A stretch of DNA of 64,000 bases from a virus: IMG/VR virus record IMGVR_UViG_3300025086_000015, positions 11,870 through 75,869 of that record; one strand, given 5' to 3'. The translations under genes and the position numbers were made by a program. Below the pieces are notes generated by a model. It was not told the DNA's origin and made no database searches. It worked only from the letters and a program-made list of their open reading frames with translations. This document shows, piece after piece, positions 16,359 through 18,317 of the stretch (positions are counted from its first letter, which is position 1; every line of letters begins with the position of its first letter).

Positions 16359-16565
16359 ATGGCACAAACTTATGACAAGAATGGTAAGTGGTCTAAGACC
16401 ACAACATTCACAACACCTTCGGGTTGGCACATCAGCACTTCGTTATCTCACACTAAAGGTGAGACTGATGTTAAAAAGTCTCAAGACTTTACTAAACTTG
16501 ATGAATTACCAGAGGAAATTCAACAAGGCATCATGGATGGTACTCTTTCAATAAAATTGAAATAG
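16359..16565 (+). CDS. First early gene, hypothetical protein
   Basis: 68 aa; A-rich leader; followed by its own terminator. Confidence 0.65.
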   Translation: MAQTYDKNGKWSKTTTFTTPSGWHISTSLSHTKGETDVKKSQDFTKLDELPEEIQQGIMDGTLSIKLK

Positions 16566-16569
16566 CACT

Positions 16570-16591
16570 AAAGGGACTTTGTCCCTTTTTT
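16570..16591 (+). terminator. Rho-independent terminator
   Basis: AAAGGGAC-TTT-GTCCCTTTTTT. Confidence 0.75.
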
Positions 16592-16598
16592 AATATAT

Positions 16599-16655
16599 AT
16601 GGTAGTAATCAATTTGTAGTTGTGAGTGTGGCTTCGTGGTCACATTCACTACTAT
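16599..16655 (+). other. Long imperfect hairpin
   Basis: GTGAGTGTGGC/GTCACATTCAC stem containing G-U pairs, closed by ATGGT/ACCAT. Confidence 0.5.
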
Positions 16656-16711
16656 TTCCACCATTTATACAATCAATCAAATCGTTAACATTATAATAAT
16701 ATAACACTAAC

Positions 16712-16831
16712 ATGAAAACACTACTTATATTACTATTAGTAGCAGTATTCTTTGGCAGCTGCGCATCAACTTGCCAATATTCTAATAGTCATTCATATAA
16801 AATGAGAAATAATTGTGCAGCATATAGATAG
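16712..16831 (+). CDS. 39 aa lipoprotein (below the ORF-track cutoff)
   Basis: MKTLLILLLVAVFFGSCASTCQYSNSHSYKMRNNCAAYR: signal peptide with FGS-C lipobox; A-rich leader. Confidence 0.65.
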   Translation: MKTLLILLLVAVFFGSCASTCQYSNSHSYKMRNNCAAYR

Positions 16832-16841
16832 TACAAAACAT

Positions 16842-16930
16842 AAATAACAAGGTTTATGATGTGAAATTCATCTCGTGGCCTCTTGACCAATCAGCCGTTA
16901 AATGCGGTAATAGATAGAGACTTGTTATTT
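16842..16930 (+). ncRNA. Structured element D1: long stem capped by a four-way junction
   Basis: AAATAACAAG/CTTGTTATTT and GTTTAT/ATAGAT stems, then three hairpins GATG/CATC, TGG/CCA and GCCGT/GCGGT. Confidence 0.5.
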
Positions 16931-16934
16931 TTAT

Positions 16935-17011
16935 TAGAAAGCATAAACATTAAATTGGGTATGAACATGGAGGTAGACACTATGCAGGTGTTCACATGTT
17001 CTAACTTTCTA
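16935..17011 (+). ncRNA. Structured element D2
   Basis: Nested stems TAGAAAG/CTTTCTA, GAACATG/CATGTTC and GACAC/GTGTT. Confidence 0.4.
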
Positions 17012-17018
17012 TATACAT

Positions 17019-17094
17019 AAATAAAGAATAGTAGAACGTCTTGGATAACAACCTGCAGTGGTAAACCGTAAGGCATGTGGACTATTCTTTATTT
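17019..17094 (+). ncRNA. Structured element D3: 14 bp stem capped by a four-way junction
   Basis: AAATAAAGAATAGT/ACTATTCTTTATTT and ACGT/ATGT stems; small hairpins TTG/CAA, ACC/GGT and CC-GTAA-GG. Confidence 0.5.
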
Positions 17095-17099
17095 TAAAA

Positions 17100-17496
17100 T
17101 ACAGTTGTAAGGTATTTATAGATAAACCTTGTTTTCTAGATAAACAAAACTAATCTTGACACTGATTGACTTGCAAGCAATCACCTATCTGGTTTAAAGA
17201 AGAAACTTTGATTTCATTCTTTACCGTGGATTTAAAATGGTAAACGTGTCCTAAAATATGGATGTGTGTCCATACTGATGATTCCAAAAGGATGAATTTA
17301 GAAAGATTTTGGGGCTTAACCCGATAAGTATAGTAATATACTTAAAGACATAGTGTGGAATCTATGTTGCCAGCAATGGTCAATTTAAGCAAGCAGGATA
17401 CTACACGGCACCAATGGACAAATGTCTGAGGGTATGTGTATCGCTTCTATTTTAGTTGGAGTGATGAGCTAGTGATAGCAATAGGAAATAACTGTA
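17100..17496 (+). ncRNA. Large structured ncRNA candidate D4 (~400 nt)
   Basis: Closing stem TACAGTTGT/ATAACTGTA; more than 10 nested helices; GNRA loops (GTAA, GCAA); no ORF in the track. Confidence 0.6.
17251..17301 (+). ncRNA. Hammerhead-ribozyme-like three-way junction (type III topology, variant core)
   Basis: CTAAA-A-TATGGAT(GTGT)GTCCATA-CTGATGA-TTCC(AAAA)GGAT-GAA-TTTAG. Confidence 0.55.
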
Positions 17497-17500
17497 GATT

Positions 17501-17993
17501 TAGTTTTGAGTTAACTGTCGAGTTAATAAAGAGTATAAATCAGTATGATGGGCAATCTTAGGGAATAAGATATAACCTGAAATACCATAACGATGAAAAG
17601 TTATACTTGAGTAGTTTAGTATTTTGTCTCTCAAAAGGAGGCGAAACTAATGAATAACCGCTACTTGAACCATAAATAATAACAATATTTATACAACTAA
17701 AAAAGAACAAGTGTTGTTCCGTTAAACATTGAAAGATGACTAAGTCTGAACACGTATGCGTATGTGAATTCAGTTGCATTGATCCCTCAAGGTGATATGT
17801 ATTTCAAGTGAAAGTCAGGTATGGGCCCTAGAACCCATCACCTCGTATGAGTAGTTTGTGAGTAAATGTTTATTGTTAAGAGTGGTTAGCTATACTAACC
17901 GTCATTACACAATACTATTGGAGACGATAGTGGATACGTTGCTAACTCATAAGGCAACAAAAGATGTGTACTATTAGCTATAATCTCAGGCTA
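17501..17993 (+). ncRNA. Large structured ncRNA candidate D5 (~490 nt)
   Basis: Long-range stems TAGTTTTGAG/CTCAGGCTA, AGTTAATA/TATTAGCT, GATGGG/CCCATC, ACCTGA/TCAGGT and GAAATAC/GTATTTC; many local hairpins, some with GAAA/GAGA loops. Confidence 0.6.
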
Positions 17994-18022
17994 TATTTTA
18001 TTAACCTTTTAATCTAAATACT

Positions 18023-18160
18023 ATGAACAACAAGAAATTACTCAAGAATATAACTTGGGAGCTCAAAAGAGCTGAAAAATATTGTACAATATCAATGATA
18101 CTAAATGTATTATTTATATTAATAATAGCAATACAAGCAATTCAATTATATATTAACTAA
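18023..18160 (+). CDS. 45 aa single-pass membrane protein
   Basis: MNNKKLLKNITWELKRAEKYCTISMILNVLFILIIAIQAIQLYIN; CTAAATACT leader. Confidence 0.55.
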   Translation: MNNKKLLKNITWELKRAEKYCTISMILNVLFILIIAIQAIQLYIN

Positions 18161-18173
18161 ATACTAAATAAAC

Positions 18174-18317
18174 ATGGAAACAGATCAAAGAATTTTGAAA
18201 AAGAATTTAGAGATAACTAAACTATCTCAACAAGTAGATAAACTAACATCAGAGTTAGTTAATCTAAAAGAAGAGTATAAACAATTAAAAAACAACACTC
18301 ATGAAGAAGAAAGATGA
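18174..18317 (+). CDS. 47 aa coiled-coil protein
   Basis: METDQRILKKNLEITKLSQQVDKLTSELVNLKEEYKQLKNNTHEEER; fills the gap in the operon. Confidence 0.55.
   Translation: METDQRILKKNLEITKLSQQVDKLTSELVNLKEEYKQLKNNTHEEER

What the first reader, a model, noticed from the sequence alone, without database searches (positions are those of the whole stretch)
17251..17301. Hammerhead-like core with a swapped 15.1-16.1 pair embedded inside a larger RNA
Seen: stem III CTAAA/TTTAG (17251-55/17297-301), unpaired A17256, stem I TATGGAT/GTCCATA, an exact CTGATGA (17275-81), stem II TCC-AAAA-GGA, then GAA. Established: the hammerhead consensus is CUGANGA...GAAA...UH, with A15.1-U16.1 and an R-Y pair closing stem II. 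Here 15.1-16.1 is U-A (a compensatory swap) and stem II is closed by U-U. Inference: either a slow or conditional self-cleaver that matures D4 (cut predicted 3' of 17256), or a catalytically disabled hammerhead fold reused as a structural module.
Basis: partly seen in the sequence, partly recalled or inferred. Interest (0 to 1): 0.8.

Follow-up and report, generated by a model that had tools for sequence, protein, structure and literature searches.

The report
Variant hammerhead ribozyme heading GOLLD RNA
This 51-base stretch is a real member of a widespread phage hammerhead (self-cutting RNA) family, carrying a known rare core variant, and it sits where it would cut a short leader off the front of a giant cage-forming GOLLD RNA.

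Summary
Window 17251-17301 is a type III hammerhead. A model built from 36 other family members scores it 66.5 bits (E 1e-16). Stems I and III covary strongly across 38 distinct sequences.

Three metagenome homologues (L159, L165, L168) have the same leader and the same downstream RNA. They carry the canonical A15.1-U16.1 and GAAA core at this position.

Both "defects" are published natural variants (Perreault 2011). U15.1-A16.1 still cleaves, with low activity. It occurs in 9 of 78 parsed family members here, and 15.1-16.1 is always a Watson-Crick pair. U10.1-U11.1 is shared by every copy the 22-mer search retrieved.

The "larger RNA" is a GOLLD RNA (Rfam 222 bits, 17607-17992; 5' core from 17311). 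The hammerhead sits between a ~93-nt conserved leader and the GOLLD core, not inside a closed domain.

In other GOLLD loci the same slot holds a pistol ribozyme or an HDV-like fold. This argues that cutting is the selected function. Cleavage itself is untested.

I found no paper linking GOLLD to self-cleaving ribozymes. This scan has noted hammerhead-released phage RNAs in other genomes, and the same element was noted in this genome.

The parts
17099..17157 (+). Conserved promoter-like block upstream of the leader. It contains TTG, then 19 nt, then TAATCTTG, and a TTGACA that overlaps the leader start.
   Evidence: The block is shared almost unchanged with L165 and L168 (GOLLD payload) and with L211 (payload not GOLLD). 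Sequence 5' of it is unrelated between loci. The sigma-70 scan gave no site here. The promoter role and a start site near 17160 are inference.
17158..17250 (+). Structured leader. A closing helix GACAC (17158-62) / GTGTC (17246-50) encloses three hairpins: 17163-83; 17196-17222 (AAAGAA-loop-TTCTTT, with the conserved loop ACTTTGAT); and 17223-41.
   Evidence: Alignment of 7 leaders and the prints. The closing helix is CTCTC/GAGAG in L178 and AGACTCT/AGAGTCT in the L012 group. The stem of the second hairpin changes compensatorily: AAAGAA/TTCTTT, AAATAG/CTATTT, AAATG/CATTT, AAAGG/CCTTT. The window is 151 of 154 identical to L165 over the promoter-like block plus leader.
17251..17301 (+). Type III hammerhead ribozyme, U15.1-A16.1 variant. 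Stem III 17251-55/17297-301. Predicted cut between A17256 (H17) and U17257. Stem I 17257-62/17269-74 with loop UGUGUG. CUGAUGA 17275-81. U17282 opposite U17293. Stem II 17283-85/17290-92 with loop AAAA. GAA 17294-96.
   Evidence: R1 gives 66.5 bits, E 1.1e-16. In alignment A1, 98.5% of cells are paired and 11 of 14 pairs show changes on both sides.
17302..17310 (+). Linker AAAGATTTT between the hammerhead and the GOLLD core.
   Evidence: Identical in L159, L165 and L168. Absent from GOLLD loci that lack the hammerhead.
17311..17606 (+). GOLLD 5' core domain (short subtype), starting GGGGCTTAACCCGATAAG.
   Evidence: Conservation with the other GOLLD loci starts here. 285 of 297 identical to L012 and 274 of 298 to L017.
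17607..17992 (+). GOLLD 3' domain (Rfam RF02032).
   Evidence: 222.4 bits against a gathering score of 150, E 1.2e-61, model positions 1-416 of 416.

Best explanation
The element is a functional type III hammerhead ribozyme of a widespread phage subfamily (CUGAUGA, UUCC-AAAA-GGAU, GAAA). It is built into a cassette of promoter-like block, ~93-nt leader, ribozyme and payload RNA. The payload here is a GOLLD RNA.

Proposed mechanism:
1. After transcription the three-way junction folds.
2. The 2'-OH of A17256 attacks its 3' phosphate.
3. This releases a leader of about 97 nt ending in a 2',3'-cyclic phosphate.
4. It also releases a 736-nt RNA (17257-17992) with a 5'-OH: the remaining 45 nt of the hammerhead, a 9-nt linker and GOLLD.

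The U15.1-A16.1 swap keeps stem III closed but should slow the reaction, so this copy is a slower version of its canonical relatives.

Shown here: family membership, covariation, canonical homologues at the same place, and other ribozyme classes in the same slot. Inferred: that this copy cleaves, the transcription start, and that the cut serves GOLLD maturation (a free, defined 5' end for stability or cage assembly).
For: 1. Membership. R1, built from 36 other members, gives 66.5 bits and E 1.1e-16 over all 51 positions.

2. Covariation. In 38 distinct sequences 98.5% of cells pair, against 69.1% in shuffles. 157 cells change on both sides, against 37. The covariation score is 0.83 against 0.20, with 0 of 500 shuffles as high. 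Sliding the partners drops pairing to 35-52%.

3. Close relative L165. It is 151 of 154 identical in the promoter-like block plus leader. In the 51-nt hammerhead it differs at 9 positions (the L159 row of A1, which is identical to L165). Eight of these form four fully compensated pairs, including 15.1-16.1. The ninth turns a U.G into U-A.

4. 15.1-16.1 across the family. It is A-U in 69 and U-A in 9 of 78 parsed members, and never a mismatch. H17 is A in 64, U in 13, C in 1 and never G.

5. The U-A form occurs in three different stem contexts: window and L187; six CGCTA/TAGCG copies; and L264. L187 differs from the window by one further compensated pair, at 15.2-16.2.

6. Literature. Perreault 2011 (PMC3088659, section 8 read) reports that a natural U15.1-A16.1 hammerhead self-cleaves with low but detectable activity. 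It also reports that natural hammerheads can start stem II with U10.1-U11.1, the best tolerated mispair.

7. Same slot, other ribozymes. Pistol (RF02679) lies 43 nt before the core in L002 (69.4 bits) and abuts it in L009 (74.7 bits). An HDV-like fold lies 5-9 nt before the core in L012, L014, L019, L020 and L027.

8. Independent DNA. Contigs of run X3 match the window with 0 differences over 16933-17465, so the variant is not an assembly error.

9. RNA library. A 647-nt contig from run X4 covers 17280-17925 with 0 differences. The tool notes that DNA can be present in such libraries.
Against: - Cleavage was not measured.
- A15.1-U16.1 is the best conserved pair of the hammerhead. Its swap loses the A15.1-G5 contact and gave only low activity in the one published natural case. 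The triplet here is AAA, outside the NUH rule.
- Stem III is five pairs, four of them A-U. The MFE fold of 17245-17312 prefers an alternative helix that buries the cleavage site (CUAAAAU with AUUUUGG), with z only -0.15.
- No Rfam hammerhead model detects the window. The canonical homologues reach only 18.3 bits, E 1.4, with HH9.
- All family members were fished with an exact 22-mer. Conservation of the core and of stem II therefore cannot be read from this set, and decayed copies would have been missed.
- The ribozyme is not obligatory for GOLLD. 7 of 14 distinct GOLLD loci show no ribozyme that I could recognise. L017, 92% identical in the core, starts about 25 nt after an ORF stop.
Confidence: 0.7

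Rival explanations
1. The copy is a catalytically dead hammerhead fold. The swap and the AAA triplet have abolished cutting, and the three-way junction is kept only as a structural spacer or docking module between the leader and GOLLD.
For: The 15.1-16.1 identity is the best conserved pair of the class, and its swap gave only low activity in the published case. The stems are kept by compensatory change, which a structural role would also explain. The MFE offers a competing helix over the cleavage site.
Against: - The published natural U-A variant does cleave.
- The swap recurs in 9 of 78 members in three stem contexts, always as a Watson-Crick pair.
- The slot is filled by pistol or an HDV-like fold elsewhere. 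These have nothing in common with a hammerhead except self-cleavage.
- The window's hammerhead is 49 of 51 identical to that of L187, which precedes an unrelated payload. It is therefore not a GOLLD-specific structural part.
Confidence: 0.17
2. The hammerhead cuts, but the beneficiary is not GOLLD. The cut would release the conserved leader as a small RNA of its own, or simply insulate the payload from upstream transcripts and give it a 5'-OH end that resists 5'-end-dependent decay.
For: The same leader plus hammerhead precedes payloads that are not GOLLD in L187, L178/L191/L192/L222 and L211. The leader hairpin with loop ACTTTGAT is also kept in the loci that use the HDV-like fold. Most family members sit before phage ORFs, not before ncRNAs.
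Against: This overlaps with the main reading rather than excluding it. Pistol-type GOLLD loci (L002, L009) show no such leader, so the common factor across GOLLD loci is a cut just 5' of the core.
Confidence: 0.1
3. The match is a chance resemblance: a CTGATGA heptamer next to hairpins in an AT-rich structured region.
For: There is no Rfam hammerhead hit, and the folding energy is no better than shuffles.
Against: R1 gives E 1.1e-16. The 22-mer is shared exactly with 81 other loci, 77 of which parse as hammerheads. Canonical homologues occupy the same position.
Confidence: 0.01

Closest known systems
Type III hammerhead ribozymes of phages and bacteria, including natural core variants (Perreault et al. 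2011, PMC3088659; section 8 read)
   Same: The three-way junction, CUGAUGA, GAA, H17 = A and intergenic phage context are shared. Both unusual features, U15.1-A16.1 and the U10.1-U11.1 mismatch, are described there as natural variants. The first is reported with low but detectable self-cleavage.
   Different: Both variants are combined in one molecule here. The element is placed directly 5' of a GOLLD RNA behind a conserved leader. Rfam models do not reach it. Which organism carried the published U-A variant is in a supplementary figure that I could not open.
GOLLD RNA (Rfam RF02032; 14-mer nanocage, Kretsch et al. 2025, PMC12286853, section 7 read)
   Same: The 3' domain matches the full model at 222 bits. 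The locus is in a phage, and the 5' and 3' domains are separate.
   Different: The 5' domain is a shorter subtype (about 296 nt against 420 nt in env-38). No tRNA lies within 64 kb. The 5' side carries a leader and a ribozyme. That paper's text does not mention ribozyme processing of GOLLD. Cage formation by this member is inferred only.
Theta ribozymes: minimal HDV-like ribozymes that trim phage tRNAs (Kienbeck et al. 2024, PMC10879173; passages read)
   Same: The logic is the same: a small self-cleaving ribozyme placed at the end of a phage non-coding RNA to define that end. The fold in the GOLLD slot of L012-type loci has the same P4-less HDV-like topology.
   Different: Theta ribozymes are reported next to tRNAs, and GOLLD is not mentioned in that text (0 occurrences). 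The window uses a hammerhead, not an HDV-like fold.
Pistol ribozyme (Rfam RF02679)
   Same: It occupies the equivalent position just 5' of the GOLLD core in L002/L028/L029 and in L009, above the gathering score.
   Different: It is an unrelated fold. It cuts near its own 3' end, so little of the ribozyme stays on GOLLD. The hammerhead and the HDV-like fold stay attached to GOLLD after cutting.

Membership tests
Hammerhead ribozyme, type III | Three helices around a core, with stems I and II closed by loops and stem III open, supported by covariation | tested here: met
   stem I 6 of 6 pairs and stem III 5 of 5 pairs show changes on both sides, and 98.5% of cells are paired. Stem II is invariant by construction of the search.
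Hammerhead ribozyme, type III | Core strand C3-U4-G5-A6-N7-G8-A9 | tested here: met
   CTGATGA at 17275-81.
Hammerhead ribozyme, type III | G12-A13-A14 followed by a 15.1-16.1 base pair. The consensus is A-U. U-A is a published natural variant that still cleaves. | tested here: met
   GAA at 17294-96, with U17297 pairing A17255. The consensus identity A15.1-U16.1 itself is NOT met. The pair is kept as U-A, as in 9 of 78 family members and in the natural variant of PMC3088659.
Hammerhead ribozyme, type III | Cleavage-site nucleotide H17 (not G), unpaired between stems III and I | tested here: met
   A17256. Across the family H17 is A 64, U 13, C 1, G 0 of 78.
Hammerhead ribozyme, type III | R10.1-Y11.1 pair closing stem II | tested here: not met
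   U17282 lies opposite U17293. All 82 occurrences share this, by construction of the search. PMC3088659 reports natural hammerheads starting stem II with U-U. I therefore treat it as a tolerated variant, not an exclusion.
Hammerhead ribozyme, type III | Match to curated Rfam hammerhead models | tested here: not met
   No hammerhead hit at E<=10 in 16600-18200. The canonical homologues L165 and L168 reach only HH9 at 18.3 bits against a gathering score of 52. My own model R1 gives 66.5 bits.
Hammerhead ribozyme, type III | Site-specific self-cleavage giving 2',3'-cyclic phosphate and 5'-OH ends | not testable with these tools
   Only assembled contigs were available. They cannot show RNA ends.
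GOLLD RNA (RF02032) | Conserved 3' domain above the Rfam gathering score | tested here: met
   222.4 bits against 150, full model length.
GOLLD RNA (RF02032) | A 5' domain shared with other GOLLD loci | tested here: met
   The core from 17311 aligns with the GOLLD loci. 285 of 297 identical to L012.
HDV-like (theta-type) ribozyme, for the module in the same slot of L012, L014, L019, L020 and L027 (not in the window) | Nested double pseudoknot P1/P2/P3, with a C at the start of J4/2. P4 is dispensable. | tested here: inconclusive
   One search examined 10 loci. P1 (7 bp) occurs in 5 sequence versions and P2 in 3 unrelated versions, all paired. J4/2 reads C[T/C]AA in 10 of 10. P4 is a 5-nt linker, 13 nt, or 125-167 nt. 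However, Rfam HDV-F-prausnitzii gives only 10.3 bits against a gathering score of 44, E 8.6. The list of HDV-like features is partly recalled, and cleavage is untested.

The most novel reading that the evidence does not exclude
GOLLD and several other uncatalogued phage non-coding RNAs are made from a modular cassette of promoter, leader, ribozyme and payload. In that cassette three unrelated self-cleaving classes (hammerhead, pistol, HDV-like) are interchangeable. The cut, which gives a free and defined 5'-OH end without the leader, is a required step in GOLLD biogenesis, for example for closing or stabilising the 14-mer cage. The U15.1-A16.1 hammerheads are rate-tuned versions that delay release of the leader and the payload.
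Probability: 0.35. Interest if true: 0.75.

Novelty: new member of a known kind. Interest (0 to 1): 0.58.

Why it matters
GOLLD is one of the largest bacterial and phage non-coding RNAs. It was recently shown to build an RNA-only 14-mer cage, but how it is made and what it does are unknown.

Three different self-cleaving ribozyme classes sit immediately 5' of near-identical GOLLD cores. This gives a concrete, testable step in GOLLD biogenesis. It also suggests natural construct boundaries for structural and functional work.

The result adds field evidence that the "forbidden" U15.1-A16.1 hammerhead core persists in nature: 9 of 78 copies in this subfamily, in three stem contexts.

Finally, it points to a reusable leader-ribozyme cassette that heads other uncatalogued phage RNAs.

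Tried and rejected
- BLASTN of 16850-18050 against cultured-phage records gave no match.
- Rfam hammerhead models gave nothing for the window at E<=10. The only overlapping hit, SNORD87 (17.9 bits, E 3.7), is the UGAUGA box and is noise.
None except the window was GOLLD-linked, so it says nothing about frequency.
- The sigma-70 promoter scan found no site in 17000-17300 and no more sites than shuffles (9 against 10.2). The promoter reading rests only on conservation with L211.
- My early idea that tRNAs lie upstream of GOLLD in L005 and L013 was wrong. ARAGORN finds 0 tRNAs in the 8 loci tested.
- The first readers' long-range helix 17100-06/17490-96 is rejected. L168 has an uncompensated change in it, and the 5' arm lies in a block shared with a non-GOLLD locus.
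- MAFFT misplaced the 3' half of L236 in alignment A3. I therefore checked the HDV-like pairs by script and did not run the count of structure pairs on A3.
- RNA evidence: no RNA-library contig covers anything 5' of 17280. X4 starts at 17280, X7 at 17396 and X8 at 17331. Contigs cannot show ends, and a part without cover proves nothing, so I do not count this for cleavage.
- Paper searches: 'GOLLD'+'hammerhead' gave 3 papers, 'GOLLD'+'pistol' gave 1, and 'GOLLD'+'self-cleaving' gave 3. From the listings, and from passages of PMC5737381 and PMC12286853, none links GOLLD to ribozyme processing. The 2009 GOLLD paper and a 2014 thesis cited for GOLLD were not seen. Supplementary figures of PMC3088659 and PMC10879173 were closed and may bear on which hammerhead carried U-A and on the theta consensus.

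Full report
OBSERVATION. Reading 16500-18000 confirms each element at the stated coordinates:
- CTAAA 17251-55 pairs with TTTAG 17297-301.
- A17256 is unpaired.
- TATGGA-TGTGTG-TCCATA spans 17257-74.
- CTGATGA is at 17275-81.
- U17282 lies opposite U17293.
- TCC-AAAA-GGA spans 17283-92.
- GAA is at 17294-96.
In hammerhead numbering, 15.1-16.1 is U17297-A17255, H17 is A17256, and 10.1-11.1 is U-U.

WHAT SURROUNDS IT.
- The window is part of a 75,869-base IMG/VR virus record.
- Rfam finds one family above threshold in the 64 kb: GOLLD (RF02032) at 17607-17992, 222.4 bits. That model covers only the GOLLD 3' domain.
- No + strand ORF of 50 aa or more lies between 16565 and 18301.
- There is no tRNA in the window.
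- Comparison with other GOLLD loci fetched by pattern scans shows that the conserved GOLLD 5' core begins at 17311 (GGGGCTTAACCCGATAAG...). This is 9 nt after the element.
- The element therefore sits just 5' of GOLLD, not within its conserved fold.

IS IT A HAMMERHEAD? Rfam hammerhead models do not hit it at E<=10. Three other lines of evidence say that it is one.

First, homologues. A metagenome scan used CTGATGA...GAA followed by the GOLLD core motif and returned 23 loci. Three of them (L159, L165, L168) are true homologues with the same leader and the same GOLLD core. They carry the canonical core: stem III CTAAT/ATTAG, GAAA, and cleavage triplets AUA or AUU.

Second, family size. The window's exact 22-mer (core plus stem II plus GAA) occurs in 52 viral contigs and 26 genome contigs. 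The genome contigs are mostly Saccharibacteria/Patescibacteria MAGs by their titles. Of 82 occurrences in all, counting the window and the three metagenome loci:
- 78 parse as type III hammerheads;
- 2 are cut by a contig end;
- 2 (L181 and L262) did not parse as type III; by eye from the print they look like type I versions.

Third, covariation and model score. In an alignment of 38 distinct sequences (A1), the three-stem structure pairs 98.5% of cells. 11 of 14 pairs change on both sides. The covariation score is 0.83 against 0.20 in shuffles, with 0 of 500 shuffles as high. Sliding the partners destroys the signal. A covariance model built without the window and without L187 (A2, R1) scores the window 66.5 bits, E 1.1e-16, over all 51 positions. 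It is the only hit in the window and in the whole record.

Caveat: the set was fished with the window's own 22-mer. The core and stem II are identical by construction, and the independent evidence lies in stems I and III, H17 and loop I. In loop I, T13 is invariant and G14 and G16 are at least 90% conserved.

THE TWO "DEFECTS". Perreault et al. 2011 (PMC3088659, section 8 read in full) describe both as natural variants.
- A sequence with U15.1-A16.1 "self-cleaves, albeit less efficiently", with "low, but detectable, activity".

In my set, 15.1-16.1 is A-U in 69 and U-A in 9 of 78, and never anything else. H17 is never G. The U-A copies fall in three stem contexts:
- the window and L187;
- six CGCTA/TAGCG copies;
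- L264.
L187 has the window's stem I and the swap, but differs by one more compensated pair at 15.2-16.2.

L165 is the closest GOLLD relative, with 151 of 154 identical in the promoter-like block plus leader. Against it the hammerhead differs at 9 of 51 positions. Four fully compensated pairs account for 8 of these, and the ninth is a U.G to U-A change. This pattern shows selection on the fold, or replacement of the module by an L187-like copy (49 of 51 identical).

An independent DNA run (X3) matches the window with 0 differences over 16933-17465, so the variant is real.

ARCHITECTURE. Upstream, window, L165 and L168 share a block from about 17099. L211 shares its promoter-like part from about 17110, although its payload is not GOLLD. 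Sequence 5' of the block is unrelated between loci. I read 17099-17157 as promoter-like DNA; this is inference, and the sigma-70 scan is uninformative.

The leader spans 17158-17250. It is closed by GACAC/GTGTC, which is CTCTC/GAGAG in L178 and AGACTCT/AGAGTCT in the L012 group. It contains a hairpin whose stem covaries and whose loop (ACTTTGAT) is conserved.

The helix 17100-06/17490-96 proposed by first readers is not supported. L168 carries an uncompensated change in it.

THE SAME SLOT IN OTHER GOLLD LOCI. A core-motif scan of viral contigs returned 24 loci. Sixteen are GOLLD, 14 of them distinct, and 8 are coding false positives.

Contents of the slot in the 14 distinct loci:
| Slot content | Loci | Count |
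|---|---|---|
| Pistol ribozyme above Rfam gathering | L002 group (43 nt before the core); L009 (abutting, by my count on the print) | 2 |
| Shared ~65-nt module, 5-9 nt before the core | L012, L014, L019, L020, L027 | 5 |
| Nothing I could recognise | L004, L005, L007, L013, L016, L017, L022 | 7 |

R1 finds no hammerhead in any of the 19 GOLLD loci from the viral scans that were given to (25 sources searched in all).

The shared module has the topology of an HDV-like ribozyme without P4. A further scan with its motif added related copies: L233, L236 and L231, and second sites in L028 and L029. One search examined 10 loci in all, these five plus the five GOLLD-slot copies:
- P1 (7 bp) occurs in 5 sequence versions.
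- P2 occurs in 3 unrelated versions.
- J4/2 reads C[T/C]AA in 10 of 10.
- P4 is a 5-nt linker, a 13-nt hairpin, or 125-167 nt.
Its best Rfam ribozyme match is HDV-F-prausnitzii, at only 10.3 bits, E 8.6. I call it a candidate.

Near-identical cores sit behind different front ends. The window core is 285 of 297 identical to L012 (HDV-like module) and 274 of 298 to L017 (no ribozyme).

Conversely, the leader-plus-hammerhead cassette precedes payloads that are not GOLLD in L187, L178/L191/L192/L222 and L211. There is no Rfam hit there, and short ORF-free stretches end in terminator-like hairpins.

MECHANISM. Three unrelated self-cleaving folds occupy one position just 5' of the GOLLD core. This is best explained if the cut itself is what is selected.

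For the window I infer:
1. Transcription starts near 17160.
2. The hammerhead folds.
3. It cuts between A17256 and U17257.
4. This releases a ~97-nt leader ending in a cyclic phosphate and a 736-nt 5'-OH RNA consisting of the ribozyme remnant plus GOLLD.
The swap should slow the cut.

Why GOLLD would need this is open: a defined 5' end for cage assembly, a 5'-OH against decay, or release of the leader as its own RNA. GOLLD's 14-mer cage and its separate 5' and 3' domains are from PMC12286853, section 7. That this member forms a cage is inferred.

An RNA-library contig (X4) covers 17280-17925 with 0 differences. This shows presence in an RNA library, not ends.

KNOWN OR NEW. The hammerhead class and both core variants are known, so this is a new member. 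I found no paper in the held library linking GOLLD to self-cleaving ribozymes (passages). The 2009 GOLLD paper, a 2014 thesis and all supplements were not seen.

Theta ribozymes (PMC10879173) set the precedent of ribozymes trimming phage tRNAs. Earlier notes of this scan describe hammerhead-released phage RNAs in other genomes, and this same element in this genome.

VERDICT. Confidence is 0.7 that this is a working, probably slow, hammerhead that separates a leader from GOLLD. Interest is moderate to good, and comes from the GOLLD context more than from the core variant.

Noticed in passing
L012:9321-9384 (+); also L014, L019, L020, L027, L233, L236, L028/L029, L231: A ~65-nt module with the topology of an HDV-like ribozyme. 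P1 and P2 covary, P3 is GCC/GGC, L3 is the invariant TTGACGT, and J4/2 is C[T/C]AA. P4 ranges from a 5-nt linker to about 167 nt. It is not recognised by Rfam (best 10.3 bits). It lies 5-9 nt before GOLLD cores, directly before an ORF in L233, and elsewhere in L028/L029/L231/L236.
   Followed up: partly
L002:837-912 (-) and L009:3860-3926 (+): Pistol ribozymes (69.4 and 74.7 bits) lie immediately 5' of GOLLD cores. I found no paper reporting a pistol-GOLLD link.
   Followed up: partly
L187:5900-6500 (+), L178 and L192 (-), L211:8700-9400 (+): The same promoter-like block, leader and hammerhead precede other ORF-free stretches of about 100-400 nt. These have no Rfam match, and some end in terminator-like hairpins. 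They are possible uncatalogued phage ncRNAs released by the ribozyme.
   Followed up: partly
L239-L264 (genome contigs): The identical hammerhead core and stem II occurs in 26 bacterial MAG contigs, mostly titled Saccharibacteria or Patescibacteria. Seven carry U15.1-A16.1: L247, L251, L253, L256, L260, L263 and L264.
   Followed up: partly
L181 and L262: The same 22-mer did not parse as type III here. By eye it looks like a type I hammerhead (stem III closed by a loop, stem I open).
   Followed up: no
window 16842-17094: The ORF-free stretch 5' of the cassette contains further stem-closed modules noted by other readers, including a long stem AAAGAATAGT...ACTATTCTTT followed by a T run near 17026-17099. 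It is not shared with L165 or L168.
   Followed up: no
L005 and L013, about 150-300 nt 5' of the GOLLD core: A T-arm-like hairpin GCAGGTTCGATTCCTGC is present, but ARAGORN calls no tRNA.
   Followed up: partly
window 17253-17304, in run X3: A second DNA contig of run X3 (718 nt) matches only the hammerhead, with 4 differences, and has unrelated flanks. This is another copy of the family in the same sample.
   Followed up: no
window 17245-17312: The MFE fold pairs CUAAAAU (17251-57) with AUUUUGG (17306-12). This buries the cleavage site and competes with stem III. It is weaker in the canonical homologues by eye.
   Followed up: no
window 17956-18033 (-): Weak match to the Bacteroidetes FopS sRNA family (24.8 bits against a gathering score of 56, E 0.45), overlapping the GOLLD 3' end on the other strand.
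   Followed up: no
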